A stretch of DNA of 64,000 nt from Raillietiella orientalis. Its lineage: Eukaryota. The stretch lies in assembly GCA_036172245.1 (NCBI GenBank), contig JAYWIR010000040.1, positions 310,001-374,000 on the forward strand, written 5' to 3'. Shown here piece by piece: positions 4,954 through 37,717 of the stretch. How positions within the stretch are numbered: the first letter of the stretch is position 1; every line of letters begins with the position of its first letter. Below the pieces are notes generated by a model that saw only the letters and a program-made list of their open reading frames with translations, ran no database searches and was not told the origin of the DNA. Position numbers and translations under genes: made by a program.

Positions 4954-5047
4954 NNNNNNNNNNNNNNNNNNNNNNNNNNNNNNNNNNNNNNNNNNNNNNN
5001 NNNNNNNNNNNNNNNNNNNNNNNNNNNNNNNNNNNNNNNNNNNNNNN
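4954..5047. other. Assembly gap (N run)
   Basis: Run of n characters. Confidence 1.
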
Positions 5048-5185
5048 AAGAGAAATCTGGCAACAGATATCTTCTGCATCCAGTACGGCAATCAAAGTCG
5101 ACACACGTCTGAAGATATCGTAGATGCCTTAGAAAGGCATTATACGGACCACTTTCGACGCGGACACCTGTGTCCAGCTACGGTA

Positions 5186-8100
5186 GTAGTGCCCTAGGAG
5201 GAGGCGAACGGCGGACGCAATTGTTGTGCGCTCCGTGGATAGGCAGTTTTTTGTCTGGTGCTTCGTGTGTGTTTCGCGGTTGTTGACAGGCAGAAATGCC
5301 TGTGTACGCCGCAGTTTCAGTGAGGGAGGCGGGAAGACCGCGACTCCCAAACCAAAGGAGGTGGGATCACGCCCCACCACTACTTCTGAACCTTCCCCCA
5401 CCACTAAGGCGAGGGCCTGGAGCGCGGTGGCAGCGGCGGAAACGCCCGTTGTCGCCGCCGAAATACAATCCTACATCCAGGAGGGCTACAATCCGGCCCT
5501 CCTGTACAAGGTAGGAAATTTATATTCCCCGTTGAGGGCGCGAAAGTTCGGCAATGCCATCAAAAAGATGGGCATTGCCGACTATGAAATTCTTTGACTC
5601 TCAATACGGAGCGGTGGGCAGTTGGCGGAGCTCATCTTCAAGGATGCAGCTCTTACCCGCAAAATGCTCTGCACGCCCGTACAATTTGAAGGCAGGAATT
5701 TACTCCCCCACAAGGTGGACCACTCCATTGTGGTTCACCTAACTGGGACAACAGTGCGGATGGATGAGAACGCCATCCGCGCTGAACTTGAAAAATTCGC
5801 AAGCGTTTTCGCGATGTGGAGAAAGCCCAACACCTTCGGAGTGAATGGTGCATTTAGTGGGCGAGTAGGCGCGCGCGTGACGCTGCGAAAAAGCGTGCAG
5901 CTTCCCCACAAGCTCCAAATTGGCGACGAGTTCGTCGACATTTGGTTTGTGGGGAAACCTAAATTCTGCGGCAATTGTAAGACGTTCGGGCACCTGAAAA
6001 AGCAGGGCCCGGACGCAGTTTGCCCAACGTGCGGCGCGAAGGGCCACACCAAAGTGGTGTGCCCGATGAACGTCGCTCCAACGCCGGAACTTCCGCAAAA
6101 GAAGGAAGGGAAGGCAAAAATAGTGATAAACCCCACAAAAGGGGATCAGCCGTCGGCTTCGACAAAAGTCGCGCAGCAGTAAAGGGGCTCGGTACAGGAG
6201 CTCCCGGAAAAGACTGCCGACGAGGAAGGCTGGCAGCTGGTCACCCGTAAAGTAAAAATCGTTAAAAAAACCGCGCCCGCACCGGCGAAAGTGGTGAAGG
6301 GCAAGGGGAAGGTCGCGCCACGCCCAACAATCAAAGCGTGCAGCGTGGCCATCAAACGCGTGCCGGCGATCGATACTCGCTCCGCTGACGGATCGATGCG
6401 ACGTGACGTCACGCCAGCTGTTCAAGCCGCCGCCGCGCGAACGCCGACGCCGCGACAAAGTCGCGAGCCCAGCGTGAGCAGCGACGACCGGGACTTCAAG
6501 AAGGCGGCGGAAGAGTTGGCAGCCATGCTCCAGCAGCCTCCCAAGGCCCAGAAGAAGGCCTTGAGGCGTCCGGCTGAGGCGAAAGGACCGGAAACTTCCG
6601 AATCCGAAGCCGAATCCGGCAACGCTCCGGCTGTCGCTCTCCCGAAGCGTAAAGCGGGCCGCATGGTGGGCAACCCGCGGCGCTCCGCACCTCCACCGGC
6701 GGAGGAGGAAATGCGGTCTAACCATGACGACGGGGAGGCGATGTCCGCGAGGTCTCGCGACTCCTCGGCGGAGGCGGTCCAAGCCAAGCAGGATCCTCCA
6801 ACCACCACCACAACCACCGACGGACCACCTCCTTGCGAGGAACAGTCCGTCGCAATGGACACACAACTCCCGCCAGCTGAACAGCAGGCGGACGGTTAGC
6901 AACCATAAACACACCAACGCATGGACTCTCCTCCTGCCGACGACTGCGCGTAATCTGTTGGAACGTCAACGGGTTGCGCGACGACGGCAAGAGGAGAGAA
7001 GTGGCCGCCAGCCTGCGGGACTTCGACCTGGCGCTTCTGCAGGAGACGCATGTGCTCCACGCAGAGGCCCAGGAAATCGAACGGATCGCAGGCGGGCGGC
7101 TCATATACCAAAACGGGAGAGACCGCACCCGCGGTGTGGCTTTTATGCTCAAGCCAGCCGTCGTTAATGCGCTGCGCGACGTGCACTTCGACGGGGAAGG
7201 TCAAATCGGGCAGCCTGTCACCAAGTGGTCCGACGCGATCGACCTCGTCGTGACCAACGTGTACGCGCCCGGCACGAGCCACAGGCGCGGGGAACGCACT
7301 GCGTTCTTCGAAGGCCTGCGGCGAGATTGGCTGGCCGAAGCAGACATGCGAAAGGCGCACCTCATTACCGGGGACTTTAACGTCCGCCTGCTGGCAGGTG
7401 CGCCCGACATTCGCGCACAGCTGGTCAACGAGATGTGTGCTGCCATGCACGCGCGCAACTTGTTGGCCGGTGACGCCGGGACGGAGACGAGGATCGACCA
7501 CATGTTCCTCGACAACCACCTGTGTTCGCGGGTGGGAAATCGAGGGGCAGTGCCATCCGAACTTTCCGACCATCCCCGGCTCGTGCTAGAAATACACCTG
7601 CGCGGTAGAGGTCCACCCTCCACAGCGTGGCGTTTGCCAGGGGACTGGTTGCGCCTCGCAGGAACAGCGCAATATCTTCGCTCGTACTTACAAGGCTTCC
7701 ATCTGCAGTCGCTCGCGGACCGGGACGACTTAAAGAACTCAGTCCGCGAGTTCTGCGACCAGTTTCCCCTGAACCGTCTCCCTCCAGGTTTCGGCGAATT
7801 GCTGAGGAACGACCGGGCATACCATCACGCCCGTCTTTACTCTAGGACTCCCGACGTTGGACGCCTGGCGGAGTATAAAGCTGGGGCTGAGCGACAGACC
7901 CGGCATTCCGGTCGGCCAGCTTGCTGTACGCCCAAGGCCAAGAATGCTCAGCTCCAGCGAAAATAGACCGCATCCTGCGTGACTTTTACTTCTTCTTGTA
8001 CGCGCGTAGGACAACAGAGCGCGCCGTCGCGCAGCGCTTGCTTCCGCAAGGCGCTCCCGCGTTACAGGAGGAGCAGAAACATCAACTTGAGGAGCCTTTC

Positions 8101-8880
8101 TCGATGGCGGAGATCATCTCCGCCATCGGAAAGCTCAGAAAGAGGAAAGCACCAGGGAAAGACGGTCTGCCCGTGGAGTGCTACCAAGGCTTCGTGGCGG
8201 AGATGGCCCCCCTGGTGCATCAGCTTTGCATGCTGATCCGAGAACAAGAGCACGTCCCCAAATCGTTCCGGTCAGCTAGAGTACGTCTCCTGCCGAAAGG
8301 AGGAGACAATCGCAACGTAGGCAACTGGCGTCCCATCACAGTAGTGAATGCGGATGCGAAGTTGCTTGCCAAGCTTTGGGCTGAGCGACTGGGACGGGTG
8401 GCGGAATCCGTGGTGAGTCCGGAGCAGACATACGCTGTTCCAGGACGATCCATGGAGGCCAACCTGTTCCTCGCCAGTACATGGTGGCAGTTGCAACAAA
8501 GCGAAGACCAGGGAGGTCAGGAGAATCCTGGATTCTCCTCTGACCATGTAGGGGACGCCCTTTATGGAAGAGCCGCGCCTGGAGCCCTTGCGGTCGCAGT
8601 CGATCTGCGTAAAGCGTTCGATTTCGTCGACCAGGAACTCCTTCTGGAGCTCCTGGAACGCTTGGGATTCCCGGCCGTCTTCCGGGCTTGCCTGCGCTCC
8701 TGCTGGCGCTTCGCTCTAATAAACATCACTTTTAGCGGGCGGCACGTGTACGGCGTGCCGGTTCGGCGTGGCATAAGGCAGGGTGACAGTCTGGGCCCCT
8801 TGCTCTTCAGCATCTACTTCGAGCTGGTGCTCAGGGCATACAGGGAGACTCTGGCAACCCTGCCAAGCTCATGTCCCGGC
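5186..8880 (+). mobile_element. Tx1-like retrotransposon C (second family): 5' UTR, ORF1, APE and RT, truncated just before YADD
   Basis: ORF1 in one frame 5226-6899 with stops at 5595 and 6180 (CGNCKTFGHLKK, CPTCGAKGHTKVVC). APE WNVNG/LQETH/GDFN/SDH at 6950-7600. RT APGKDGLP, WRPITVVNADAK, DLRKAFD, GIRQGDSLGP at 8100-8880. Confidence 0.9.
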
Positions 8881-10861
8881 ATCGCCAATACAGCCGACCC
8901 CCCGCGATCGCCTCAATCTCCTGGAGGTCTGCCGCGGTGATCACGTGGATCTCCTGCAGCAGGGCCAGGTCGAACTCTCGCAAGGTGTCGGCCGTGTCTC
9001 GTCCGTTGCCGTCATCGCGCAGTTCGTTTACATTCCAACAGGCCATGCAGATCCGACGGCGACTGGCGAGCCCAGGTGTTAACCCTGGGAAAGTGGCTGT
9101 GGGGCGTCCGCCACCTTCTGGGGCGGGACGCTAGGTGGAGGACCGGGAAGTGCTGAGGGCAGCTGGCCCCTTCCTCCATTGGTGTCGGCGCCTCGGACGG
9201 ATCACCCTCAGGTGGGGTCGCACCTACCGGTTGGCCCTCCTCCATGGGGGTGGACGGCACGACGAATTCCGAGCGTGGGAGTTCCCCTCCAAGATTCACA
9301 CGCTGCTGCTGCCTTCCGGCTTCTCGCTGGTGGAGGGGAGGCGCCTCCTGGGCTTCGGGGACTTGCGTCCCGACTTCCTGGGGGTGCATCCGCGGAGTAG
9401 GATGAGCTTCCGGCCCCCAAGTCGAACTCTCCTGTGAGGACGTTTTCCACCGGATCCGGCCTTCTCACGGCCTTGCGCAAAGGATTTTCGCGCTCAGCCA
9501 GCGTGGCCGCCAGCTCCTCCGCCGTCATCGCGAACGCGGCGTCCTCGCTTTGGGCGACTTCGTCGCCCGGCTGACCCTCTGCGCAAACAGAGGGCGACTT
9601 TTCGCGCGCACCCGTCGCGGCTGGATCTTTAACAGAAGCCGTATCGCCTATGGTGGTGTCGGCGGGAACGTCAATGCGCTCCAGCGTAACCGTGCATTCT
9701 CGGAAAGTTTTTACGCGCGGCACGGATTTAGCTTTTGTTCCGGACGCCAGCTTCCCTCCTTTCTTCGGGACATGTTTGTCCTTTTTCTTTTTTTTGGCTT
9801 TGACTAGCTGCGAGCCCTCTTCTCCCTCTGCGGTTTCGGGAAGATTTTTCTCCGACGCCGCGCTTGGAGATTGGGTCATTGGCAGCTTTTCTCGGCCAAT
9901 TTCCCGGTTTTCCGATTTTTCTTTCCCCCTCGCGTTTCCCTTGCGCCTTTTTGGCGGCCGAGGGAATCGGAATGGGGCGTTTAGGGGACACACGACGGAC
10001 GTGTTCCTTCTCCCCGCACAAGTAGCACTCGATGTTTGGGCACCTCTTTCGGATGTGTCCGACCGCATCGCAGTAGCCGCAATACCGTGGCTTGCCCGCA
10101 TACCAGAGGTCTACCGGTTCTCCCGCGACCTCAAGTTTGTGGGGAAGCTTCGCACCGTCTTTTGGGGTTACACGTGCCGCGGCGAGGCCCCCGAAGTGGC
10201 GCCCGTAGCCCTCAAAGATTGTGGGCTTCGGCCACAGCGCGTGTACGTCCCCTTATTTACATAGTTCTTCTTTGACGGCAGTGCGCGTCATGCGCTTAGA
10301 TATTCCTGTCAAGTGGACCACTACCGAGTGATCCATTGACACCGAGAAGATCTTACGGCCGTCCATGATCAGCGGGGTATTTATCAGGTGATCGGCTAGG
10401 CTGATGCTCTTGCACAGCAGCTCAACGCGTTGCGCCCCGCTGAGCACGCACAGACCTTCCAGATCTTCCTCACGGATATTCGCATTTTGAAGCGCTCTGC
10501 TGAAAGAGCGCGCCGTATTACCTTCAAATAAAGGGCCTACCTTATGCACAAGCGATGGCTTGCATCCACTGGCCCGATATGCAGCTTCCTCGGCCAAGGC
10601 CTCCGCACTGGGTGCGGCGACCATTTCGCTCCAAGTCTTCGCAGGCTGCGAAGACAGTCCTGACGCTATTTCCTCCACATCTGTAGGTGGTATGGGAGGA
10701 CTCGCCCCCTTATGCCTACCTCCATTGCGGTGTCCTCTCGCAAGGCTGCCATCGGACACCGACGACCCACACTACACCTTGGAAAAAAAGGAAACGAGAA
10801 GTTCCTTTCCAGACAGTCGCTCAAGGAGCGACCAAAAAAACACGTCCACCCACAACGACAC
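8881..10861 (-). mobile_element. Tx1-like retrotransposon D (same family as C), inverted: 5' UTR, ORF1 and APE N-terminus
   Basis: ORF 10253..10759 is homologous to C ORF1 (PSLVHKVG, DHSVVVHLTG); 9208..10101 shares F...AEELAA.L; 8831..9046 reads CWNVNELRDDG...FDLALLQEIH. Confidence 0.88.
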
Positions 10862-10958
10862 AATACTATTTACCGGATTGCATCTGCTGCGCAGTTACGC
10901 AGTATAAATACACACTCCACACAACGTACATCTAGTCCTACCTTTAGTGAATTTCAAG

Positions 10959-12057
10959 ATGCCATACGCACTTTTTTTTAATTGGTGTTTTACACTCTGC
11001 AACTTCTCAGAAGATGAACTCAAGGAAATAAAAGACTGGTGCAGAAGCAACTGCTTCTTCGCGTGCGTCGGTAAATAAGTCGCAAAAATAGGGACGCCAC
11101 ATCTTCAGGGATATATTCAACTCAAAGAAACTAGGACTCTACCTCGGCTCAAACGCAAACCATTTCAAAAATCTCATTTGGAAAAAGCTAGAGGCAGTCC
11201 ACAGAGCAACATACGGTACTGCACCAAAGACAAACAAGCATGGACATACGGAAGAATAAATGACAGCAACGAACCTACAGACTACCAAGACCTAGTAAGC
11301 CCTTCAACCATAAAATACAAACTAACCATTTCAATCGTAGATTCTTCAATTAATAGAAGACGGAGCAGATGAACATTTCATCTTGAAGAACCATACCAAA
11401 TTGTATAGCAAAAACATCAACTTCGTGAAAGAATGCTTCAGATTAACACGAAGCCGAGCTCACCCTAACCCTTTAGCCAACCTACAATTGAAGGCATGGC
11501 AAATGGATATACTTCAAATTATACGACACAAACCAGACCTTCGAAAAATTCACTGGTTTTACGACCCGATAGGAGGTGTTGGCAAAACAACCATGCCCAA
11601 ATTCCTATACCTTAAAAAGGCAGCCATTTACATGCACTCACGTAAAAAGGCAGACGCCGCCCACATTTACAACGGCGAAAGGATCATCGTCGTCGACCTG
11701 ACGAGAGATAAGCAAGAACTAGTCCAATATGGCTTCATCGAGACTCTCAAAAATGGGATCATCTTCGATAGCAAATATCAAGGAAGCATAAAGTATTTTC
11801 AACCTCCACATATTCTGGTTTTCTCTAACTGGGAACCAAACTATGAAAAGATGAGTTCAGACAGATGGATAGTACGGAACATATCCACAACCAACAGTAC
11901 AGCTCTGGTTCCTTGGATGATGGATGATGGTGGTGTCATTCTCCCTTGGGCTTGCACTTCAAGCCCTAGTACAGCGCAAGCCCGCGACTCGCCAGATTCC
12001 TCATCATCCATAGTGTCACCCCTTTCCCCCTTTTTTGATGTAATAAACAAAACCTAA
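10959..12057 (+). pseudogene. rep: CRESS-virus Rep, copy 1; two exons (10959-11294, 11341-12057), about 350 aa, one in-frame stop at 11076
   Basis: RCR motifs WCFTL, PHLQG, YCTK. Walker A GGVGKT, Walker B IIVVDL, motif C VFSN, Arg finger SSDRW. The GTAAG...ACTAAC...TAG intron restores the frame. Confidence 0.93.
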
Positions 12058-12083
12058 CTTTTAGCTTTTTGTATTGCATTCAT

Positions 12084-12630
12084 TTAATATAAACCAACAT
12101 CTCTCAAGTGCTTAAACTCTATGTAGTATCTTCTCGTTATTCTGAATATGGGAAATCCTTTACTCAAAGTTCCGTTCTTTGGACAGATACCTGACTGACA
12201 ACCCAACTTCAAATCATCAGGAATATCCACACCTGACATATGCTTCAACACATGCATCCTGTGGAAATGCACACGACACAAAGTTTCTCCATCCAAAGTA
12301 GAGCCTTGCCAACTATCTATCCAAGGGAAACGCCTATATCTATACAGATTTCCTTTTTCCTCATAACGCGTTTCACGGATATAACCTTTAGAATAGAACC
12401 TCAATCCACGAACGCCAAAGTAACGATCAAAGCAACCAGAAGTTTCAGCGTGACCGGCTATCCGCTCGTCTACCTTACTATAAGGCATTCCAGTTAAGCT
12501 TTCAAAAAAATTGGCCCTGGTTAGGACTTTGATACAACATGTTCCGATAAGACACTTTCATTCCGAACTCTTCACCCATGTTGCCAATTGTTAAACCCAA
12601 AGACAAGGGCTCTACTTTCACAGACAGAGT
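12084..12630 (-). pseudogene. cap: CRESS-virus capsid, C-terminal half, copy 1
   Basis: ORF 12084..12488 plus upstream KVEPLSLGLTIGNM..MKVSYRNMLYQS align with the full-length Arg-rich protein at 24490-25421; convergent with rep. Confidence 0.8.
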
Positions 12631-12646
12631 TTTGCATGTCAGCGAA

Positions 12647-12681
12647 ATGCAATCTGGGTAATACTATTTACCAGATTGCAT
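12647..12681 (-). promoter_or_regulatory. Intact rolling-circle origin stem-loop with nonanucleotide TAGTATTAC (copy 2)
   Basis: Perfect 11-bp stem atgcaatctgg (12647-12657) / ccagattgcat (12671-12681) with a 13-nt loop; GTAATACTA at 12658-12666 reads TAGTATTAC on the minus strand. TATAAATA at 12701. Confidence 0.95.
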
Positions 12682-12761
12682 CTTCTGCGCAGTTCCCAAC
12701 TATAAATACCAACAAGCGGACAACCAAAGCCAAGTCTTACTTACTCAGAATTACCAGAAAG

Positions 12762-13471
12762 ATGCCATACGCACTCTTCTTTAATTGGTGTTTCACACTC
12801 CGCAATTTTACAGAAGATGACTAACAAGAAATCAAAGCATTTTGCCGTGCGAACTGTTTCTTCGCATGCATTGGAAGAGAAGTGGCAAAAACAGGCACGC
12901 CACATCTCCAAGGATATTTCCAACTCAAGGAACCGAGAACTATGCCAGGATTAAAACGCAAGACTTTTCAAAAAAGCCATCTTGAAAAAGCCAGAGGCAG
13001 TCCACAGAGCAGCTTGAGGTACTGCACTAAGGAAGACAAACAAGCATGGACGTTCGGTCGCATCCACGACACCAACGAACCGACGGACTACCAAGACCTG
13101 GTAAGCCAATCCTTTTCACCACTATATCTAATCATTATCTCCATTAGATATTACAACTAATAGAAGATGGAGCGCACGAGCATTTCATATTGAAAAATCA
13201 TACCAAATTTTATTATAAAAATATTAATTTTATAAAGAAATGCTTCAGAATTACCAGAAACAGAGCACACCCAAACCCACTAGCCAAACTCCAACTTAGA
13301 AGCTGGCAAATGGATGTACTGAAATTAATATGACACAGCCCTGACAACCGAAAAATCCACTAGTTCTTCGACCCAATCGGAGGGATCGGCAAAACAACAA
13401 TGGCCAAATATCTCTTCCTTAAAAAGGGAGCTATATATATGCACAGCTGCAAATAGGCAGATGCTGCACAC
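12762..13471 (+). pseudogene. rep: CRESS-virus Rep, copy 2; 3'-truncated after Walker A; intron 13101-13147
   Basis: MPYALFFNWCFTL, PHLQGY, YCTK, GGIGKT. Several stops (e.g. 13331, 13361) and frameshifts. Confidence 0.92.
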
Positions 13472-15635
13472 TTCCCGGTCGAACAGTGGAGGCCAACCTG
13501 TTCCTCGCCAGCACCTTTTGGCAGTTGCAACAACGCGAGGCTCAGCTAGGTCGGGAGAGTCCTGGACTCTCTACTGACCAAGGGGAGGGAAGAATAAGAG
13601 AAGCAGCGCTGGGAGCCCTTGCGGTCGCAGTCGATTTGCATAAAGCTTTCGATTGCGTCGACCAGGAATCCCTGGAGCTACTGGAACGCACGGGATTTCC
13701 GGCCGTCTTCCTGGCCTAACTGCGCTCCTGCTGGCGCTTCGCGTTTATCAACATTAATTTCAGCAGCCAGCACGTGTACGGCGTGCCGGTTAGTCGCGGC
13801 ATCCGGCAGGGAAACAGCTTCAGCCCCCTACTCTTCAGCATCTACTCTGAGTTGATGTTGAGGGCATACAGGGAGACTTTGACAACCCTGCCGAGCTCAT
13901 ATCCCGGCACGCCTGCCGTGTCGGCCTATGCCTACGACCTTATGCTCCTGCATCGCGGGTCCACCCCGGCATTGGCGCTCGAAGATTGCTTCGAGTTGCT
14001 TCGCCGTGGGAGGGGCCTCGAGATGAACTCGACGAAGTCGTCGTTGATACATACCGAAACGTCGCGGGCAGGACGGTCGGACTGAATCCGATTGCGGATC
14101 CCCACGGGTGAGTACATCAAGTACCTTGGCGTTCCGTTGGGGGACTTCTCATTGCAGAAGCCTGTTCCGACCGTCTCCAAAAGGTGGAGTTCGCGATCGG
14201 TCCATTCCGGGACGGATATTTTTATTTGCAGGAACGGGCCGCGGTGTGGAATGCCTTTGCAGCCTCCCTCCTTCGCCCCCTACTTCTTGTGTGCCCCACC
14301 CCTCCCCAAATTCGGAAAAGGACAAGAGGCCTCATTAGAAAAGCCCTCTGGGGCAACCGGAGGCCCCGCGTCCGGCTTAAAGACTTGTGCTCTCCACGCA
14401 GTGACGGTGGATTTGGTCTCCTGACCTTGAAGCGCGTGAAGCGTCAGCTCCAAATTAGCAAACATGCCCTTGTGGCAAAATATTGGACAGCGCCATGGTG
14501 TGCGCCCACACGACTCCTCGCCTACAGGGCAACCGGCTGCAACGGATTGAACTCAATCCTAGTAGCCAACGACTGTAGACTGAACATTGCGGATTTCCGC
14601 TACGGGACTTGGTGGCCCTAGTAAGGAGCAGCCGGTGGATCTCCTGCAGCCCCGGAAACTTGTCTACCTGGCTCCAGGAGTCCGTTTCCGCGTGGGCAAA
14701 AATCAACGGCTCCAGTGGTGTGGAATTCTCCAGCTTCCGTCGAGGCAGCAACGCTGGCCAGCTCCTGCGGGAGATTGTTTCCAAGCCACAAAAGCTTTTG
14801 TGGGCCTCGTTCACCCCCCTTGCCCCCGTGCTGCCCTCCCTTATAGAAGCCAGGGACAGCCAAGAGGAGGCATCGTATGAAGTGTCCTGCCTCATCAGAG
14901 GTAGGAAAAAACTGATGAAAGCGTGGACGTCCCGGGAACTAGCGGACGCTACAACCCCGAGTGTCCCGCCAAATGGAATTGTGCGCTGGGGCGAGCTGCT
15001 CGGCATGCCTTTGGAGGAGAAGTGGCCCCCGGCGTATTGGGACAGTGGCACTCTAGCTTTGGATTGGCAGGAGACGGCGCTGCTTGTGCTCCATTGGGTC
15101 TTTTAAGCAGAGCACGCCTGTCTCACTGGACATTGGAGAGATTGGATGCCCATTGTGCAGAGTGCGAGAAAAGGGAGACCTTCCCCGTTTAATAATCGAG
15201 TGTTGCCCTCCGCTTCATGTGGGATCGACTCTCGTCGGCCCTAAACTAACTGGTGGGCGACCCTAAAAATATTTTTCGTCGCCTCCTGATGCGGAACTCC
15301 CTGCCAGGTGCCGCGTGTGTTGCAATTCTCTGCTGCATACGGAGAATATTGGACAAGTGGAACGCATGAATAACAGGCCGCAGTAGTCGGAATGCCATCC
15401 ACTGGGCAATCTCCATGGATAGCTTCCCGTTTGAGCCGGCTAAGTAACATTCTGCCAGCACTTGTTTCTATGCAGAACCAGATGCAGTGGCCCCCGCACG
15501 GCTTACTGTGATCCTTTCCCTTCCTTCCCCCCCTAAATATTGTCCTCCAAGCTTTTTCTTTTTTTTTGTTTTTTTCTTTTCCCGTCCCCTTCGCCAGTAG
15601 AGAGGACCTTACCGGCATACTGGTCGGAAAGCTCA
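13472..15635 (+). mobile_element. Tx1-like retrotransposon E (family C), 5'-truncated RT, C-terminus and 3' UTR
   Basis: PGRTVEANLFLAST, DLHKAFD, GIRQGNSFSP, YAYDL (degenerate YADD), KYLGVP, GGFGL, CAEC..RET. T-rich UTR after the stop at about 15511. Confidence 0.88.
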
Positions 15636-15831
15636 AGTGCATAAAACAGTATGAACAATGTGTTCTGATTGGAACACAAGTACAGACGTTAGGACTATAT
15701 TATAAAATAGATAATACCTAGAGTATTGCTCCAATTTTAATGCACGCAACAAATTTGCTAAGCTAATTGCCTGCTCCCTATACGTATGCATCCAGGAACA
15801 ATTCACATTATCTTCATCTGAAGATGAACTA
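15636..15831 (-). pseudogene. cap: CRESS-virus capsid middle fragment (continuation of the copy 3 cap)
   Basis: DEDNVNCSWMHTY..LLRALKLEQYSRYY aligns with DGDHVNCSWMFTY..LLKKLDLAEFAKRY in the copy 4 cap. Confidence 0.78.
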
Positions 15832-18800
15832 TGCCAAGGGCGCCGCAAACGAGGCACGTGAAGACTGCGGGCCTTGTGTTGAACTTCCGGACTCGTGGGA
15901 TGAAGAGGACGACCTCTCCAGAGCGGCTGCCAGTCCCGCGACGACTCCCGCACGAGCTGGTAGCTCCGCTAGTGCCCCGCCACCCGAAGAAACCTCAACG
16001 CAAGCTGGCTCCCTGCTGGATGAAGAATGTGTGGTTGTACCCGATGCTTCAAGCCCGATAGCCGTGCTATCGCCGACGTCGGTGGGATTAGACCCCGTCT
16101 CCATCAAGGATGAGCCACCTGCGCCACCTCAACCTGTGGAGCGCGCACTCGACTACCACAAGCTGAGCCCGGAACTCGAAGAGTTTGTGTATCGTAGTGC
16201 AAGCCCCCCTATAGTGGAAAGCGTAGGAGTTCGCTAACTGTGTGGCTCCAGCCACTCAACCCTCACAGTGGCGTCACCATCGCAAATTGGGTTAGACATG
16301 TTAGGCCAGCTCTCTCCGGAGGAAACAATCACAGTGGTTGTCCCCTGTTCTCCACCCTCGCCCCCCACCGTCCACCCTGCATACGTCCGCTTACTGGAGA
16401 AAGGAGTCGCGAAGGGAAAGGGGCTGCGCCGGAGAAGCCTCCATCGGGAAAAAACAGGAACCAACGACGGCGGGAAGAAACTCTCGTTCGAAGACCCCGT
16501 AGTAAGTCCTAATTCTAAGCAAACAAAATCGCAACGAGAAGGCCGTGCTCGGCCGATAACACTCGACCCCGCACCCTTGGTGCCGCGAACGTCCGATTGC
16601 GTAAACTCCACTCTAACGCAAGACGCCGTACTGATAGTGCATTACCCTGCGCCAAATTGTCTAGCCTGCCCGCTACCGAGGTGCAGATGGAGCACCTCGA
16701 CACACCAAACCAAAAGCACGGTTGGATCACTGAAGCGCCACATTAGGACGTCCCACTGGATCCCTGTACAAGACGCGCACCTGGTGTGCAGAAAATGCGA
16801 CGTGCAAATCCCTAACCCAGTTTGGCGCCATCGATGTGCGCCGAGAATCACTCCGATCGTGCCATCTGCCCCACTTCTATGTCCGGAACGGAACTGTGGG
16901 CAAAGCTTCTACAATAAGAAAGCCTTGGCGAACCACACCCGCTGACACGACGCCATCAACAGGACCTCGGAGAGAACATACACGCGCGGGCTTCGGGTCC
17001 AGCAAACGGCTGAGAACGCGTGTCGAATCGATCCGCGGCCGAGCTCCCCTGAGTTATACGCAGGGGAAACTGTTCCTCCGATATATCCCGATCAGGCGAG
17101 CGAATGGCGCACGGTCCCCCACTCACAGCTGCTTAGCAGCCTTCAAGGTGCGAATGCCGGTGGGAAATTTACAGAACTGATCTGTCAGATATACTCCAGG
17201 AACACCACCCGGATTGCCACCAAAGAGGGGCTCTCAGCACCCATTGCCCTCGAAAGAGGGGTCAAGCAAGGTTGCCCCTGTCGGGCTTGCTGTTCAATAT
17301 CACACTAGAGCCTCTCTGTGTGTGTATCAAGAGCCAGGTGCCCAAAGCCAATGTATTGGCGTACGCGGATAACTTAGTCATCCTAACAAAGGATGCAGAG
17401 GAGCTTTAAAAAGCACTCGACTGTGCCAGCGCAATGGCCTCTCGACTTGGGCTGTCGATCAACGCCAGGAAGTGTGCATCGTTCCAATACGACCCGGGTA
17501 CTCCAAGAACTGTTGGACGCCAGCGATTCCGAGTGTCGGGTGAGCTCTTGCCCGCCCTCACGGACGTTGGCATCTACAGCTACTTGGGGAAACCAGTCGG
17601 CTTCGATGCCATCCACAGCGATGCGCTTGAAGCCGACATCCGGTCCAGCATTGTCACAATTTTGGAGGCACCACTAGCTCCGTGGCAAACGCTGGACGCT
17701 CTAAAAACGTTTATTTTCCCATCCTTCGTCCACCGCATGCGGATGGGCTCTAAGCCCAGGAGCTTCTGGAGTGGTTTGGATGAGGTGATTAAAAAAGCAT
17801 TGAAGGAAGACATCCTTCCGTTGACCCGGGCCTCTTCCAAAGAGTACCTCTACGGGTCTCAGAGATATGGTGGTCTAGGGTTGATGATCCTTGCCGAGGA
17901 GGCCGACATCATGGCCGTTGATTCAGCTTTTAAAATGCTGACATGCCCTGACCTGGCCATAAGAGAGATGGCTTGGGCCTCTCTCAATGAAACCGTCCGG
18001 AGGAAAGTGCGCCAGCAACCGTCTGACGCCTTGATATCTGGCTATATCAGCGGAGACATCGACCCACCCTTCCATCATCAGTCGGGAGATCTCACCGACT
18101 ATTGGTCGAGAGCTCGCGAAGCCTCGAAGAAGCTTGACCTACAGTGGTCCATCCGAGCAAACCAAGTCTCCATCAAACTATCTAACAGGACACTCCGACA
18201 GAATGATCGGAAAATAATAGCCCGGTCCATTCGGGGCCTAAAGAGGCTCCAGAGAAGCAACGTGTTGAGAAGCAAGCCGGACCACGGCCGTATCATGGAT
18301 TGCGTGGCCCTTCACCCAGCTTCCATGGCCTTTTTACATAGGCCCGAGCTCATTCGACACAGCAATTGGAAGTTTATCCATAGAGCTCGCCTTAATCAAA
18401 TGTTCCTTAACGGTAATCGGAAGCGACCAGGCTTCCACGAGGCCCGTAGGCACTGTCCGTATCCGAAGGAAACATTATCCCACGTGCTATGTCATTGCAC
18501 CAAGCATCTTGGAACGTCGATCACAGCTAGGCATAATGCCGTCCTAGGCATGCTGGAGCATTCTGCCCGACCGAAATGGGGCCACTTCTCGGTCGATAGG
18601 ACAGACCTATCCATCGATAGCAGCCTGCGACCTGATATCGTCGCATCAGATGGACAACACATGATCATCGTGGACGTGTGCATCCCCTTCGAGAACCGGA
18701 AGCAGGCGATGGATGCAGCGAGAACACATAAGATCAGCAAATATACCGACATCCGCAGGAAGTACGAAGAACAGGGCTACAACGTCAAAGTTGAGGCCTT

Positions 18801-19984: not shown

Positions 19985-20053
19985 GCGTAATCTGAGTAAT
20001 ACAGACCAGATTGCACTCAGCAAAAAATGCTGCGCAGTTAGTCAGTATATAAA
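19985..20053. promoter_or_regulatory. Degenerate origin stem-loop (minus-strand nonamer CTGTATTAC) and rep promoter, copy 3
   Basis: Arms gcgtaatctg (19985-19994) / cagattgcac (20007-20016) with 2 mismatches, GTAATACAG at 19996-20004, ctgcgcag at 20030, TATATAAA at 20046. Confidence 0.8.
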
Positions 20054-20117
20054 CCACCTACAGCATCCGGACCGCAGTCTCTTCCAGTGAATTACCTACA
20101 GTGAATTAATCTCCAAA

Positions 20118-21175
20118 ATGACTTCACCATGCACTACACTTCAAATGGTGCCTCACCCTATGCAAATACACTGAGGAGGACTTCAAGACCATAAAGCACT
20201 TGTACCGCTCCAACTGCTCCTTCGCCTGCATCGGAAGGGAAACCGCAGACAGTGGAGCCCCTCACCTACAGGACTACATGGAGTTCAAAGAACCAAGAAC
20301 CATGCCGGGATTACGCCACAAACCTTTTCATAAGACACCCTTAGAAAAAGCCAAAGGCCCTCCACAGAGCAACATAAGGTAATGCACGAAGCAGGATACA
20401 GATGTATGGACTTTCGGGGCCATCAACGAACAGCCAGAAGCAAAATCTTATCAAGAACAAGTAAGTTTACCTCGAACATAACTACTACTCTACTAACTCC
20501 TTTCTAGATCCTACAACTTATAGAAAGTGGAGCAGATGAGCTCTACATCCTCAAGCATCACACCCAATTTTATTCAAAAAATATAAACTTTACCAAAGAG
20601 TGCTTCCGATTCTCCAGAACACGTAAACACACCAACCCCCTAGCCGGACTCCAACTCAAACAATGGCAGATGCAAATTATAAATCTCATCTGACACCAGC
20701 CCCATAAAAGAAAAATCTACTGATACTTCCACAAGGTTGGAAACACTGGCAAAACGACGATGGCCAAGTTCCTCTTTCTCAAAAAAGACGCCATATATAT
20801 GCACAGCTGCAAAAAAGCTGATGCCGCTCACATATATAATGGTGAGCGTATAATAGTATTCGATTTCACAAAAGACAACATGGAGCACATACAGTACGGC
20901 TTCAGTGAACCCCTAAAAAATGGAATCATCTTTGATTCCAAATATCAAGGAAGTATCAAATACTTCCGAAATCCCCATATTACAGCATTCGCCAACTGGG
21001 AGCCAGATTACAGCAAGCTCTCTAGAGATAGGTGGATTGTTCATAACATCTCCGCTAGTCTCAGCAAGACCAACTGGCAAGTAGGAGAGGAAGGAGACAT
21101 CCTCCCATGGTCTCTATCTTCAAGCTCTAGTCCAGATAGAGACCCTGATTCGCCTGCCTTCTCCCAACAAACTTT
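20118..21175 (+). pseudogene. rep: CRESS-virus Rep, copy 3; near full length, decayed; intron 20461-20507
   Basis: WCLTL, PHLQD, *CTK, GNTGKT, IIVFDF, AFAN, SRDRW; GTAAGT..TACTAAC..TAG intron. Confidence 0.92.
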
Positions 21176-21189
21176 GAGTAACGGAATAG

Positions 21190-21607
21190 GATATTCCGTA
21201 CTTCGTCCTGCAGATCCAGACGGTTATTGTCTTGCTTCGCCATTCTTCGCTTGTTTACACCATCACAGAATTCCAGATGATTGGAAATCCTCAAGAACAG
21301 TGCTTATCCCAAAACCAGGATCATCCGACCTCCTAAACATCTCGCAATTCCAACCTATTTCAATTTCCAATACGATAAAGTTTTTTCAAAAATCGTCGCT
21401 TGTCGATTGCGATCGTGGATTATCAGAAATGGCATATTAGGTCCCCACCAAAAAAGTTTTATCCCATTCGACGGTGCTCGAACAAAACTTTATCCTCGCT
21501 TCGTCCATCGAGCATTCAAGAGTTCATCATAAAGATTTAGCAATTGTATGGATTGATATAAAAGATGTGTTCATATCTATTCCGCATAGCTTAATACTAA
21601 ATTCTCT
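21190..21607 (+). mobile_element. Short RT fragment of an RLE-clade (R2/NeSL-like) retrotransposon
   Basis: DPDG, IPDDWKSSRTVLIPK, FQPISISNT, HQKSFIPFDG, LAIVWIDIKDVFISIPH across frames. Confidence 0.75.
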
Positions 21608-22830
21608 ATCCTCGCCGTCGCCCTGAACCTTTTAGTCGTTTTCCGTCGGGATCTCGGAGCTGGCCTTCGCCTTGGTGGCGGAAGTTACCTCCTTCGCTGC
21701 AGCTAGTGCTGGTAGCTTTCTCCTTTTCTTTGACGCGCGCTTTCTCGCGTTTCGGGCGGACGTGACACGGACTAAATAGTGGGGGCACACCCGACTACTG
21801 TATCCCGTTTCCTTGCACTTCTGGCACTCCACGTTCGGACACCTCATCTTGAAGTGTACAACACTGCTGCAGCAGCCGCAGAACCTCGGTTTCCCCACGT
21901 ACCACACGTCAATGGATTCACTGTTACGCACAGTTTGTAGGGAAACTTGCAGCCTCCGCGAACCGTGACTCGCGTTGCAGCGAGACCTCCCAGCATACCA
22001 TCGTAATCTACGAACCAAGTGGGCTTACCCCACAGCGCATTTTTTTTTTCTTTTTTTTAATAAAAGCCCCGGCTCACCCGGATGAAAAAACCCACAGCGC
22101 TTATACGGTTGCAAATTTATCAACTTCGTTCCGGACAGACTCCTTCGTCATGCGGAACGTTATACCGGTCAGTTGAATGATTACCGACCGGTCCTGTGTT
22201 ACCGGGAGAAGCCTCCGACTTCCCATCAGTACAGGGGTTCTCAGGAGTCTCTGCACAAGAGTTGCCTCCTGCAGATTACCTCCACGAATTGACCGCCGCT
22301 TCCTATGGACATAGCCAGAAGCTCCTCTTTAACGCCCACCTCGCATCGCTTGCGAGAAGGCACGCGCGCTGTCTGGAGAATGCAGCCCACCTACCTTAAA
22401 TAGGAGGGGTGGGTTATACTCCTCCTCCAGGTGGGCACGCATCTCCGCCATACCAGCAGGCGTAGGTGCGACAGCCACGGCTTTCCAAGCCTTGGGTGGG
22501 GCCGGGGACGCATCAGTGGGCTCCACTTCCATCTCCTCCGTTGGCGATGAGGTCATCGCCTCCAGTTCTCCACTGGTTGTGGTGTCAGGCATTGCTGCCT
22601 AAACCAGCACCGACAACATACACAAACGCAGGAAAACGGAAACTCAGGAACGACCATAGAACACGTCCGCTCGGGGCTCCGGATTCTCAACGACTGGGAC
22701 CCCATGAAGGCTGCGGTCCGCGAGTACTGCGAGCTCCGCTTGAAACGCCTGCTCCCCGAATTTGGAGTTTCCACCTAGATACGCGAGGGGTATTAAACTC
22801 TGCAAAACGTGGTAAGAGACCCTACTAATG
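21608..22830 (-). mobile_element. Tx1-like retrotransposon F (family C): 5' UTR and ORF1, 3'-truncated
   Basis: 22329..22592 (EEEYNPPLLFKVG) and 21632..22018 (DVWYVGKPRFCGCC..CQKCKETG) are homologous to C ORF1. Confidence 0.85.
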
Positions 22831-22844
22831 GCCACTACAACACC

Positions 22845-23910
22845 GGACCTGCCGAGACGCCGGGTCGCAGACAAGCGTGACTCCTCGGCAGTCAAAATGG
22901 ATGGGGGGAAAAACAAAAAGTAAAAATAAAGAAAACCAAAAAAAAACATACTTTCAAGGATTAGGAAGGGTTCACTGTTCATTGGGAGGACGGAGCATCC
23001 TTTGAAGGATGCCCTCGAGGTCCTTCAGCTCCTGTCCCAGCTGACGTCATCCCGCCACTCTCTCTATAAAGCGAACAGCATAATGGATGACATCCATGTC
23101 GCTTGCATCAACTTAGTCGTGGGCATCACTCCAGACCGTCACCATCCCTCGGATGCAGCAGTGCTGCCGGGGCTCCAGCTAGTCACAGGGCATCCTGAAC
23201 GAGGAGAAGCCGAAAAACGTCTCTGGGCTGACTGCCCACCGGGATCCGTAGCGAGGAACCAAGACGCTCCCAGAGAGGTCGAAGGGCAGCAAAATCAACA
23301 ATAAGGTGGGAAAGGGTTCCATTCCGCTCCACGCACCTGATGCAGTGAAGATTCACTCGACCCCGCGTCCAGTGATGGCGGCGTGCGTTGCAGGGTAGAC
23401 CCCAATGCAACAGGAGAAGCGCCGAGTCCTGCCACTTCAGGGGCAAGGATCCTCGAACCGTTTGAAACCGGTGGCCACTTCAGGTCATCCATCGGGATGC
23501 CGAGCAGCTCGCCCTATCTCAGTAATCCTCGCGGGACGACACTTCGGGTCATGGCGTCGGCCAACTGTCCCATGTCCAACCGCTCATCTTCTCTCTGCGG
23601 CAGGAGAATTGCCACCTAGGCATGCGGCTGCTGGGGAGCGCTCTCCACGGGAAGGGCATCGCCGTAGCTAGGGGGTCGTCTCTGCCCATGTGCTCCTCGC
23701 GGGACACTGCGGTATCTTCCGCAGAGTGCAGCGAGAGTTGGCGCCGCGTTGCAGGCAGTTCCACATCTCGTGGTTCCTCTCATTTAGCTTCGCCCACGTG
23801 CCAGTAGTCTCCTCCAGCCATGTGGTGGAGTTGGCCGGACTGCAGACCATCCAGCCGTTCTCCTTAGTTATGATGGCTATGCTTCCAAGAAGGCCGCATC
23901 TGCAGATCTG
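22845..23910 (-). mobile_element. Tx1-like retrotransposon G (family C): ORF2 C-terminus and 3' UTR
   Basis: PLKWQDSALLLLHWGLPCNAR..CIRC..TLSHLIVD; T-rich UTR on the minus strand at 22900-22970. Confidence 0.85.
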
Positions 23911-24002: not shown

Positions 24003-24490
24003 TATAACCCCGTTGGTGGAACGGGGAAAACAATCATGGCGAAATTCCTTTATCCGAAAAAGGGTGCCATTTACATGCACTCATGCAGGAAAGCAGACGC
24101 CGCCCATATATACAACGGAGAACGTATCATCGTAGTTGTCTTCACCAGAGACACACAAGAGACTGTCCAGTATGGCTTCATCGAAACTCTCAAAAATGGA
24201 ATCATATTCGATTCCAAATACCAAGCTTCCATAAAATACTTTCAAACGCACACATCATCGTTTTCTGCAACTGAGAACCAAACTACGACAAAATGAGCAA
24301 CGACAGATGGACAGTCAGGAATATTTCCAAAAATGATGCCAACAGACTCACTTCTTGGATGATGGATGAAGACGGTGCCATTCTCCCTTGGGATTGCACT
24401 TCAAGCCCTAGTACAGCGTAAGCCCGCGACTCGCCTGAGTCGTATCCTTCCACATTGTCACCTCCCTCCTTTTTTTTGATGAAATAAACA
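24003..24490 (+). pseudogene. rep: CRESS-virus Rep helicase half, copy 4
   Basis: YNPVGGTGKT..HSCRKADAAHIYNGERII..LKNGIIFDSKY; 3' end closely matches copy 1. Confidence 0.9.
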
Positions 24491-25421
24491 CTTATCTCAC
24501 ATATCTCATTTTTTATTTGTATAAGCCTGTCTATTAGGTGTTTGAATACAACATAGTACTTGTGGGTTACTCTGTATATCGGAAACCCGTTTGTCATTCG
24601 CCCGTTCTTTGGACGAATTCCTGCTTGGCAACGTTCCTTCAACTCGTCTGGGATATCTACACCAGACATATGTTTCATGATATGCACACGGTTGAACCAA
24701 ACATTCCCGTCTGTTTCATAATCCAGCGTATTCCCATCACTACACTCTATCCAAGGACATCGCCACGATCCAACACAACACCGTCTACCGACACTCTCTT
24801 CGTCAAGTATGCTCCTCAAACCACGTACACCAAAATAACGAGCAAAACAACCAGACGTCTCTTCGTGCCCCCCCCTATCACAGCTTCCACATGATCATAA
24901 GGTTTTCCATACATTGATGTGAAATGCTCGCCCTGAGGCGCAGATTGATACAACATATTCCTGTATGACACTTTCATGCTAAACTGTTCCGCCATATTCC
25001 CTGTTGTCAAACCCAAAGACATGGGCTCCACCTTTGTCGCGCAACCCTTTATCTTCACATATCTATAGCGCTTTGCAAATTCTGCTAGATCTAACTTTTT
25101 TAACAAAGCACGTATTCGAACATAAAATTCCAAATATGTGAACATCCAACTACAATTCACATGGTCGCCGTCTGCTACACGTAGCGAAGAATAATTAGAT
25201 GCTCCCTGCGTCATATCCCTCACAACTACTCGCAAACAACGACCTACACGCCAATTAGGATTTCTCTATATCCTAGGTCGATGGCGACGCAAATTCCAAC
25301 GGCGCCTCCTTTTGAACGTGCTATATCCTCTAGGACGACGCGATAAACGACGCCGCTTCACGCCATACGACGATCCAACACGTTTCCTCTTACGCGAGTG
25401 AACCGCACGAGGTGTTGCCAT
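24490..25421 (-). pseudogene. cap: CRESS-virus capsid, full length (about 300 aa), one stop and frameshifts, copy 4
   Basis: ATG at 25421 gives MATPRAVHSRKRKRV..FKRRRRWNLRR; continues as ORFs 24816..25235 and 24283..24819; C-terminus YYVVFKHL matches copy 1 YYIEFKHL. Confidence 0.85.
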
Positions 25422-37676: not shown

Positions 37677-37717
37677 ACAAGCATGTTATCGGACGAGTGG
37701 TCCGATAACATGCTTGT
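37677..37717. repeat. Perfect 18-bp inverted repeat, 5-nt loop
   Basis: acaagcatgttatcggac-gagtg-gtccgataacatgcttgt. Confidence 0.95.

What the first reader, a model, noticed from the sequence alone, without database searches (positions are those of the whole stretch)
10840..10910. Viral copy 1 begins exactly at the Rep nick site and is fused to a retrotransposon 5' end
Seen: copy 2 reads ..gGT|AATACTATTTACCAGATTGCAT, and copy 1 reads ..acgacac|AATACTATTTACCGGATTGCAT. Homology stops at 10862, i.e. TAGTATT^AC on the minus strand. The flank is the 5' UTR of minus-strand element D. Known: CRESS Reps nick at TAGTATT^AC and leave a 3'-OH on TAGTATT, and non-LTR RTs can jump from a template's 5' end onto a free 3' end. 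Inference: D's cDNA (plus strand, made left to right) ran off its RNA and jumped onto the nicked viral ssDNA 3' end. The retained intron and TATA box show the template was not spliced mRNA. Rep-catalysed strand transfer is the alternative. Either would be a specific mechanism for DNA-virus endogenisation.
Basis: partly seen in the sequence, partly recalled or inferred. Interest (0 to 1): 0.9.

Follow-up and report, generated by a model that had tools for sequence, protein, structure and literature searches.

The report
Endogenous cyclovirus-like array ending at Rep nick
A decayed circular-DNA virus copy in a eukaryotic chromosome starts exactly where the virus's own replication enzyme cuts its DNA and is fused there to the front end of a LINE retrotransposon, which hints at, but does not prove, how such viruses get into genomes.

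Summary
Copy 1 and copy 2 align from 10862/12660 and not one base further left. That point is the complement of TAGTATT^AC, the only hairpin-borne nonamer in the window (minus strand, 12658-12666). Copy 1 is exactly one unit, 1798 nt from nick to nick, and runs straight into copy 2.

The left flank is the 5' region of a minus-strand APE-type LINE, element D. The polarity fits a reverse-transcriptase jump onto the viral 3'-OH.

- D's true 5' end cannot be located. It has 118 nt of 5' UTR against 193 and 249 nt in two paralogs, and no significant alignment to them.
- D has no 3' end, and no target-site duplication was found.
- Copies 1 and 2 are different viral lineages (pN/pS 0.17-0.19). The array is a hetero-tandem in register at the origin, not a rolling-circle concatemer of one genome.
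- Only 1 of 6 viral boundaries lies at the nick.

No reads or whole genome were available.

Odds: a Rep-nicked end was the joining end, about 0.8. LINE RT template jump about 0.4. End-joining of a nick-derived end about 0.3.

The parts
10862..12659 (-). Viral copy 1: one whole unit (1798 nt) of a cyclovirus-like CRESS genome, from nick to nick. The virion strand is the window's minus strand, and its 3' end (…TAGTATT) is at 10862.
   Evidence: Rep domain PF02407 E 3.6e-15.
10862..10883 (-). Half origin of copy 1: the loop part 3' of the nick plus the right arm (CCGGATTGCAT on the plus strand). The left arm is absent.
10959..12057 (+). Rep of copy 1: exon 1 at 10959-11294 (one in-frame stop), apparent 46-nt intron at 11295-11340 (GT..AG), exon 2 at 11341-12057 (open, 238 aa, Walker A GGVGKTT).
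   Evidence: 7546 database relatives at E<=1e-3.
12084..12590 (-). Second viral ORF (putative capsid, no family assigned), with one frameshift. It is 54% identical over 120 aa to the copy 4 ORF.
   Evidence: No Pfam hit and no PDB sequence hit.
12647..12681 (-). Complete origin hairpin with an 11-bp stem. Nonamer TAGTATTAC at 12658-12666 on the minus strand. Inferred nick between 12660 and 12659.
12660..13471 (-). Viral copy 2: 812 nt of a different viral lineage, starting at the nick position and in register with copy 1. Rep has 4 in-frame stops.
8887..10861 (-). LINE D: 5' UTR (10861-10744), ORF1, and the first part of the APE endonuclease. It is cut off on its 3' side at about 8887-8892.
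   Evidence: EN fragment matches Exo_endo_phos weakly, E 0.02.
5100..8886 (+). LINE C: ORF1, EN (6881-7966) and RT (7891-8886). Cut off on its 3' side and lying tail to tail with D.
13472..15333 (+). LINE E: 5'-truncated within RT and joined to copy 2 with a possible 2-nt TT overlap. It is 80.6% identical to C 8438-8886.
19985..21300 (-). Viral copy 3 (a third lineage): origin with both arms, Rep with stops. Its boundaries are not at the nick.
24007..25034 (-). Viral copy 4 (a fourth lineage): C-terminal half of Rep plus the second ORF. It ends 42 nt short of the nick equivalent.
22830..22854 (-). Head-to-tail LINE joint: the 3' end of K (…CGGCAGGTCCGG, 22843-22854) directly followed by the 5' start of G. 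A second such joint, J|F, lies at 26439-26451 on the plus strand.

Best explanation
The left end of the viral array is the free 3'-OH end (…TAGTATT) that the virus's own Rep leaves when it nicks the origin. A linear, virion-sense viral DNA entered the chromosome by that end.

[quoted passage not shown] The most likely route is a template jump. A LINE reverse transcriptase copying D RNA reached, or nearly reached, the RNA's 5' end. It then continued on the 3' end of the nicked viral strand. This is how LINE enzymes make U6-L1 and MINE-type chimeras and jump onto the cleaved target strand in normal integration. The enzyme copied one full unit (10862-12659) and went on into a second, different viral genome (12660-13471).

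Shown:
- the position of the break
- the polarity
- the unit length
- the identity of the flank as a LINE 5' region
- that the viral template was DNA-derived, since promoter, half origin and intron are kept
- that the two viral units are different lineages

Inferred:
- that Rep made the end, by analogy with circovirus Rep nicking between nonamer positions 7 and 8 (ICTV profile, PMC5656780, passages read)
- that an RT, rather than a ligation, made the joint
For: 1. The break is exactly at the nick equivalent. Chance is 0.0006-0.010 depending on tolerance and on counting 1 or 6 boundaries.
2. Copy 1 is exactly one unit from nick to nick (1798 nt). It is followed at the next nick position by a genome of another lineage: pN/pS 0.19 (CI 0.12-0.27) in exon 1 and 0.17 (0.11-0.25) in exon 2, against 1.2-4.1 in the two control frames. 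The 51 origin-proximal nt are 44/51 identical while synonymous sites differ at 0.62-0.76. So unit-length molecules with ends at the nick were the building blocks.
3. The flank is a LINE read from its 5' side on the virion-sense strand, with all of ORF1 and 118 nt of UTR. A random break in a roughly 5.7-kb LINE falls in the first 250 nt with the right strand at about 0.02.
4. The same window holds two LINE 3'-end|5'-start head-to-tail joints of the same polarity (K|G, J|F). F and G are separate lineages (ORF1 pN/pS 0.42). Such joints are what end-to-end jumping produces.
5. At 3 of 3 firmly typed LINE/virus boundaries (D, E, K) the LINE's 5' side faces the virus. Two more (J, Q) probably do.
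6. Literature:
   - Non-LTR RTs jump templates after adding 1-2 untemplated nt, and the paper states generally that RTs copy both RNA and DNA templates (PMC8857657, passages).
   - The TPRT model includes a jump from mRNA onto target DNA (PMC2881922, passage).
   - Double jumps give tripartite chimeras (PMC2104539, passages).
Against: - It is one junction. Only 1 of 6 viral boundaries in the window is at the nick.
- D's real 5' end is unknown. Its UTR is 75-131 nt shorter than those of F and G, and it does not align to C, F or G above shuffles (scores 31, 20, 20 against shuffle means 22-23, sd 4).
- D lacks its whole 3' part, and no target-site duplication was found. The hallmark of a chimeric retrocopy is therefore missing.
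- My own idea of a 450-nt duplication flanking D plus virus failed. C/E pN/pS is 0.39, CI 0.26-0.58, not about 1.
- The seam at 12659|12660 is perfect, with no extra bases. That is more typical of Rep joining or recombination than of an RT that adds untemplated bases.
- Copy 2 carries 4 stops in 221 Rep codons against 1 in 350 for copy 1 (Fisher p = 0.077). This is a weak hint that the two units differ in age.
Confidence: 0.4

Rival explanations
1. End-joining of a nick-derived end. A double-stranded replicative form, or a Rep-made hetero-multimer, was broken at the Rep nick, for example by fork run-off at the nick. Cellular NHEJ or alt-EJ then ligated it to a chromosomal break that happened to lie in the 5' UTR of a resident LINE in this LINE-rich region. 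No reverse transcriptase was involved.
For: The break is at the nick. The region from 1 to 30 kb is mostly LINE fragments in both orientations, so a LINE neighbour is expected. D is truncated on its 3' side, and the C|D and copy 2|E joints look like plain illegitimate joints, with a possible 2-nt overlap at 13469-13470. The general view is that non-retroviral DNA viruses integrate by non-homologous recombination (PMC2987831, passages).
Against: It needs the coincidence that the host break lay in the first roughly 120 nt upstream of a LINE ORF1, on the strand that matches RT polarity (about 0.02). It does not explain why LINE 5' sides face the virus at the other typed boundaries.
Confidence: 0.3
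2. Coincidence. A longer integrated array was later cut by an unrelated deletion or TE insertion whose edge happens to fall at the nick position. A break in the loop of the origin palindrome would be a variant of this.
For: The locus is old and scrambled. The other five viral boundaries are at arbitrary positions. If hairpin loops are fragile, the exact position has about 1 chance in 14 within the 13-nt loop.
Against: An exact hit has probability 0.0006 per boundary, or 0.003-0.01 over six. The nick is 2 nt from the loop edge, not at the palindrome centre. No viral sequence lies anywhere left of 10862 in the window.
Confidence: 0.12
3. Rep-catalysed strand transfer, a rolling-circle-transposition-like integration. 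Rep itself joined viral DNA to host DNA, or joined an incoming genome to a resident origin.
For: Unit-length copy 1 has both ends at the nick position. The origin is perfectly regenerated at the copy 1|copy 2 seam between two different lineages. All 4 viral copies have the same orientation within 15 kb (P = 0.125). This would suit repeated Rep-dependent entry at one locus. AAV Rep-dependent integration needs a Rep binding site and nick site in the target (PMC2944168, abstract in a search listing only).
Against: At 10861|10862 the virion-strand joint reads TAGTATT|GT, not TAGTATT|AC. Rep would have had to be linked to a host 5' end made at a non-cognate site. No left hairpin arm lies left of copy 1, as insertion into a resident origin would leave.
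Confidence: 0.08
4. Assembly artefact: a false join between a LINE and viral sequence.
For: No reads could be laid. There is an assembly gap at 4954-5047.
Against: The viral copies carry stops and frameshifts at different places and are interleaved with LINE fragments at several points, so they are chromosomal. A false join would be expected inside shared repeat sequence, not at the exact edge of homology.
Confidence: 0.05

Closest known systems
LINE template-switch chimeric retrocopies (U6-L1 in mammals; MINE and tripartite chimeras in Magnaporthe; PMC2104539, passages read)
   Same: A second nucleic acid is joined by its natural 3' end directly to the 5' side of a LINE, in the same strand orientation. 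Serial jumps are known.
   Different: Here the captured molecule is viral single-stranded DNA, not a cellular RNA. The LINE part lacks its 3' end and no flanking direct repeats were found. The LINE is near full length at its 5' side rather than randomly truncated.
Endogenous circoviral elements arranged as tandem full genomes in cyprinid fish, and carnivore elements flanked by non-LTR retrotransposons (Dennis et al. preprint, 10.1101/207399, passages read)
   Same: Whole circovirid-like genomes lie in tandem in a host chromosome, in association with non-LTR elements.
   Different: That work proposes copying of the element along with retroelements after integration. No nick-site junction is described in the passages found ('nick' 0 occurrences). 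Here the tandem units are different viral lineages.
Genus Cyclovirus, family Circoviridae (ICTV profile PMC5656780)
   Same: - Genome of 1.8 kb (the profile gives a range of 1.7-2.1 kb).
- Two ORFs in opposite sense.
- Nonamer TAGTATTAC at a hairpin apex on the strand of the non-Rep ORF.
- Very short gap between the ORF 3' ends (26 nt, 12058-12083).
- Intron in rep.
   Different: The second ORF matches no capsid family. The best Rep relatives in the 1.84-billion-protein library are 33-47% identical in the helicase half. No phylogeny was made.
Geminivirus-related DNA in Nicotiana genomes (recalled; Bejarano et al. 1996 is not held)
   Same: From recall only: integrated repeats of a Rep-encoding ssDNA virus whose homology is said to end at the origin nick.
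   Different: A plant virus, with no LINE fusion reported as far as I recall. I could not check the claim. The reviews I read mention the integration but not the nick.
AAV Rep-dependent integration at AAVS1 (PMC2944168, abstract in a search listing only)
   Same: An HUH Rep and its nick site determine where viral and host DNA join.
   Different: That system needs a Rep binding site and nick site in the host target. The host side here shows none.

Membership tests
Cressdnaviricota (CRESS-DNA virus) genome | HUH Rep endonuclease domain | tested here: met
   PF02407 Viral_Rep E 3.6e-15, 56 bits against a cut-off of 26, on exon 1 read with X at the stop. HLQGY and YCTK are seen in the translation.
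Cressdnaviricota (CRESS-DNA virus) genome | Superfamily 3 helicase with Walker A | tested here: met
   GGVGKTT in exon 2. 4326 library proteins at E<=1e-10. Pfam RNA_helicase is only 17.4 bits, below the 21.5 cut-off.
Cressdnaviricota (CRESS-DNA virus) genome | Origin hairpin with nonamer at the apex | tested here: met
   11-bp stem, TAGTATTAC in the loop, -13.3 kcal/mol, z -5.9.
Genus Cyclovirus | Origin nonamer on the strand of the capsid ORF, opposite to rep | tested here: met
   Nonamer on the minus strand and rep on the plus strand. Among 80 distant IMG/VR relatives, 25 have it on the rep strand, 22 opposite and 33 had none found.
Genus Cyclovirus | Circovirid capsid protein | tested here: not met
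   No Pfam family at E<=1 for either copy of the second ORF and no PDB sequence match at E<=1. No structure was predicted.
Genus Cyclovirus | Rep groups with cycloviruses in a phylogeny | not tested
APE-type non-LTR retrotransposon (element D) | ORF1, APE endonuclease and RT in one orientation | tested here: inconclusive
   D's ORF1 and the first roughly 85 aa of EN are collinear with LINE C. The D EN fragment matches Exo_endo_phos at E 0.02, below threshold. RT is absent because D is cut at about 8887. C itself has EN at E 5.7e-16 and RT at E 5.2e-17.
LINE template-switch chimera | Captured molecule joined by its natural 3' end, same orientation, directly to the LINE | tested here: met
   Virion-strand 3' end at the nick, with no identifiable filler.
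LINE template-switch chimera | LINE part runs to its 3' end, and the whole chimera is flanked by target-site duplications | tested here: not met
   D ends inside EN at about 8887. The candidate 450-nt flanking repeat C/E has pN/pS 0.39 and is not a duplication made at insertion.
Rep-mediated joining | Joint regenerates TAGTATT|AC | tested here: not met
   10861|10862 reads TAGTATT|GT on the virion strand. The feature is met only at the internal seam 12659|12660.

The most novel reading that the evidence does not exclude
Rep-linearised, unit-length virion strands from a mixed infection were copied one after another, end to end, by a LINE reverse transcriptase that had just finished a LINE RNA. 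This would be a specific and general route by which single-stranded DNA viruses with no RNA genome stage are written into chromosomes. It would naturally build in-register tandem arrays of different viruses with one end at the Rep nick.
Probability: 0.25. Interest if true: 0.85.

Novelty: new variant of a known kind. Interest (0 to 1): 0.55.

Why it matters
How CRESS-DNA viruses become endogenous is not known. The papers I could read give only 'non-homologous recombination or retroelements' in general terms (PMC2987831; 10.1101/207399). My searches found no paper that combines endogenous cressdnaviruses, nicking site and junction (0 papers).

A junction that joins the natural Rep-made 3' end of a unit-length genome to a LINE 5' region is base-level evidence that a replication intermediate was the substrate. 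It turns the question into a testable one: census the breakpoints genome-wide, and test RT jumping onto a TAGTATT-3'OH end.

The hetero-tandem finding also matters for dating. Divergence between tandem copies here is mostly viral evolution, not decay since integration.

Tried and rejected
1. Single composite insertion of D plus virus into a LINE 'CE', flanked by a 450-nt duplication (8438-8886 against 13472-13913, 80.6%). Rejected. pN/pS is 0.39 (CI 0.26-0.58) in the RT frame against 0.96 and 1.35 in the control frames. C's missing 3' part is not found after E.
2. Copies 1 and 2 as a rolling-circle concatemer of one genome, or a duplication made after integration. Rejected by pN/pS 0.17-0.19.
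3. Copies 3 and 4 as one unit split by a G+K insertion. Not supported. K2P is 0.47 and pN/pS 0.31.
4. Locating D's 5' terminus from paralogs C, F and G. MAFFT alignments were ambiguous and local alignments were not above shuffles. An apparent shared GTTGT start motif and a GGACGTGTT..GGTCG motif give conflicting registers.
5. A templated origin for the 13-16 nt next to the junction. No other copy in the window at up to 3 mismatches.
6. Twin priming of one LINE RNA giving D (inverted 5' part) and E (3' part) with virus caught between. The geometry fits, but D and E share no region, so it cannot be tested. D's ORF1 is nearer to F than to C, while E's RT is nearest to C.
7. Close exogenous relatives for comparing origins. 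The word search found none. IMG/VR relatives are at most 44% identical. The exact loop motif hit one unrelated 8.9-kb contig.
8. Whole genome not held. Sequencing runs: none was listed, and no RNA holder was listed. Earlier findings of this scan: none. The listing of cluster members switched off. Bejarano 1996 not held.
9. Q (21453-21620) as an RT fragment. Only RVT_1 at E 0.072, and no similarity to C's ORF2.
Full report
WHAT IS THERE

The window is eukaryotic. No genome is held for it. The first 30 kb is a mosaic of APE-type LINE fragments in both orientations. EN and RT domains are at 6881-8940, and RT is also at 520-2121 and 13720-14085.

Four fragments of a small Rep-encoding circular-DNA virus are embedded in this mosaic, all with rep on the plus strand:
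- copy 1, 10862-12659
- copy 2, 12660-13471
- copy 3, about 19985-21300
- copy 4, 24007-25034

Exon 1 of rep (10959-11294) matches Viral_Rep at E 3.6e-15. Exon 2 (11341-12057, open, 238 aa) carries the Walker A motif and has 7546 relatives at E<=1e-3 in the 1.84-billion-protein library. The best relatives are 33-47% identical. A 46-nt GT..AG stretch (11295-11340) separates the two exons, and copy 2 has a 47-nt counterpart. No RNA evidence exists for the intron.

A second ORF lies on the minus strand (12084-12590). It is conserved between copies 1 and 4 at 54% over 120 aa, E 3e-42. It matches no family.

The architecture is that of the genus Cyclovirus as given in the ICTV profile (PMC5656780, passages). 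It is 1.8 kb, the origin is on the strand of the non-Rep ORF, rep has an intron, and the 3' intergenic gap is short. I do not file it as a member, because the capsid feature was not met and no phylogeny was made.

THE OBSERVATION

Copy 2 has the complete origin: an 11-bp stem at 12647-12657/12671-12681, a 13-nt loop, -13.3 kcal/mol and z -5.9. TAGTATTAC lies on the minus strand at 12658-12666. It is the only exact match and the only nonamer in a hairpin in the window. Circovirus Rep nicks between nonamer positions 7 and 8 (PMC5656780). Here that falls between plus-strand 12659 and 12660.

The homology of copy 1 to copy 2 starts at exactly 10862 = 12660. To the left, 2 of 11 bases agree. Copy 3 also has GT and a left arm before AATAC. 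Copy 1 therefore begins at the complement of T7 and keeps only the right arm.

A random break would hit this position with probability 0.0006 for one boundary. Over six boundaries it is 0.003, or 0.01 within 1 nt. Reads could not be consulted.

THE FLANK

On the minus strand, 10642->8873 is collinear at protein level with ORF1 and the start of EN of plus-strand LINE C, 5409->7123. It also matches two further ORF1 copies: F (plus, ATG 26644) and G (minus, ATG 22592). The motif that precedes ORF1 in C, F and G (GGCAG.AATGCCTG) is recognisable in D at 10750-10741, with the ATG changed.

D therefore keeps all of ORF1 and 118 nt upstream of it.

Whether 10861 is the true 5' end is not settled. F and G have 193 and 249 nt between their ATG and the point where a preceding LINE's 3' end abuts them. 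Local alignments of D's UTR to C, F and G are no better than shuffles. D is also cut off at about 8887 inside EN, tail to tail with the 3'-truncated LINE C.

NEW FACTS THAT CHANGE THE PICTURE

(a) Copy 1 is exactly one unit, 1798 nt from nick position to nick position. It continues without a break into copy 2.

(b) Copies 1 and 2 are not two turns of one genome.
- Their differences are concentrated at synonymous sites. Exon 1 has pS 0.62, pN 0.115 and pN/pS 0.19 (bootstrap 0.12-0.27). Exon 2 has pN/pS 0.17 (0.11-0.25). The two wrong frames give 1.2-4.1.
- The first 51 nt from the nick are 44/51 identical.
- So the divergence (74.5% identity, K2P 0.31) arose in replicating entities that needed Rep and the origin.
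- The ICTV species threshold is 80% genome-wide. Over the 803-812 nt they share (about 45% of a unit), the two copies are 74.5% identical, below that figure.
- The same holds for copies 1/4, 1/3 and 3/4 (pN/pS 0.25-0.31).
- The locus therefore holds four viral lineages in the same orientation. Copies 1 and 2 form a hetero-tandem in perfect register at the origin.

(c) My attempt to show that D plus virus is one insertion framed by a 450-nt duplication of a LINE failed. C 8438-8886 and E 13472-13913 are 80.6% identical, but their pN/pS is 0.39 (0.26-0.58), not about 1.

(d) Pattern of neighbours.
- At the three firmly typed virus/LINE boundaries (D at 10861, E at 13472, K at about 24006) it is the LINE's 5' side that faces the virus. 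J at 25441 and Q at about 21453 probably do the same. With 3 of 3 this is only a weak pattern (P = 0.125).
- The window also has two LINE-to-LINE head-to-tail joints, K|G at 22842/22841 and J|F at 26450/26451. The upstream element ends at the same 3' terminus as a solo copy, M at 48139.

MECHANISM

On the virion-sense (minus) strand the order is: viral DNA ending in …TAGTATT, then D in sense from its 5' UTR. That is the product expected if plus-strand cDNA of D, growing left to right, passed from D RNA onto the 3' end of a nicked virion strand. It is equally expected if the viral 3'-OH primed second-strand synthesis on D cDNA.

The literature fits this. Non-LTR RTs jump between templates after adding 1-2 bases, and the paper states generally that RTs copy both RNA and DNA templates (PMC8857657). 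The standard integration model includes a jump from the mRNA onto target DNA (PMC2881922). LINE chimeras with a captured molecule joined by its natural 3' end are known, including double jumps (PMC2104539). The unit-length copy 1 followed by a different genome starting at its own nick is what serial end-to-end copying of separate linear strands would give.

Several things count against it:
- the missing D 3' end and the missing target duplication
- the unproven D 5' end
- the perfectly clean seam at 12659|12660, which suits Rep joining or recombination better
- a weak hint that copy 2 is more decayed than copy 1 (4 stops in 221 codons against 1 in 350, p = 0.077)

A Rep-made hetero-multimer with a free 3'-OH, joined to the chromosome by ordinary end-joining, explains the viral side just as well. 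It needs only a roughly 2% coincidence on the LINE side.

Rep-catalysed transfer does not fit the host joint, which reads TAGTATT|GT rather than |AC.

I put the general claim that a Rep-nicked end was the recombining end at about 0.8. Within the whole space:

| Explanation | Odds |
|---|---|
| RT template jump | 0.4 |
| End-joining of a nick-derived end | 0.3 |
| Coincidence | 0.12 |
| Rep-catalysed transfer | 0.08 |
| Assembly artefact | 0.05 |

COMPARISON WITH WHAT IS KNOWN, AND NOVELTY

Tandem whole-genome circoviral elements, and circoviral elements flanked by non-LTR sequences, have been described (10.1101/207399, passages). In the passages found there is no mention of a nick-site end.

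An origin-nick end for integrated geminiviral DNA in tobacco is something I recall but could not check. The two papers I searched that mention that integration do not contain the word nick.

One full-text search for endogenous + cressdnavir + nicking site + integrat + junction returned 0 papers. Supplements were not consulted.

I rate this a new variant of known kinds (endogenous CRESS element, LINE template-switch chimera). It is a single-case observation with base-level precision, and a mechanism that is plausible but unproven.

Noticed in passing
window 26460-26564 and 22692-22765, against 7699-7794 and 28273-28360: The 5' UTRs of LINEs F and G contain a 75-90-nt stretch that is the reverse complement of the ORF2 linker between EN and RT. 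It is 75% identical to C's and 68.5% to F's own ORF2. It includes a CTCGCGGAC…GTCCGCGAG inverted repeat. This could be a long-range RNA pairing or an ancient 5' inversion fixed in the family.
   Followed up: partly
window 22842/22841 (minus) and 26450/26451 (plus): There are two head-to-tail LINE joints. The upstream element ends at the family's 3' terminus (…GGCAGGTCCKG, as in solo copy M at 48139) and the next element's 5' UTR follows directly. F and G are separate lineages (ORF1 pN/pS 0.42), so the joints seem to have arisen independently, or the dimer is itself the mobile unit.
   Followed up: partly
window 19522-19767 and 25197-25442; also 15696-15821 and 25050-25175: Shared segments (50% and 40% identical at protein level by tblastx) lie just left of copy 3's origin and just right of copy 4's second ORF. 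A related piece lies after LINE E. They may be extra viral sequence between the second ORF and the origin in those lineages, or another repeat. No Pfam match.
   Followed up: partly
window 16000-19985: A long plus-strand ORF (17410-19029, 539 aa) and its neighbours have no Pfam family and no paralog in the window. ORF 16238-16945 gives weak C2H2 zinc-finger hints. The nature of this region is unknown.
   Followed up: no
window 4954-5047: An assembly gap of 94 N lies just upstream of LINE C's 5' region, so C's 5' end cannot be read.
   Followed up: no
protein P0002 (representative library): The best database relative of the Rep helicase half (E 3.4e-67, 354 aa) contains two near-identical helicase segments in tandem. 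It looks like a gene model drawn over a tandem endogenous copy in some other genome. Its source could not be looked up.
   Followed up: no
window 30000-46000: Base composition drops from 48-62% GC in the LINE/virus region (1-30 kb) to 31-42% GC. This is a sharp change of sequence type that I did not examine.
   Followed up: no
window 22842-23909 against 47075-48140: LINE fragments K and M are 87% identical overall by blastn, but a 600-nt part differs at only 2-3% of sites. That suggests a recent copy or a gene conversion between the two loci.
   Followed up: no
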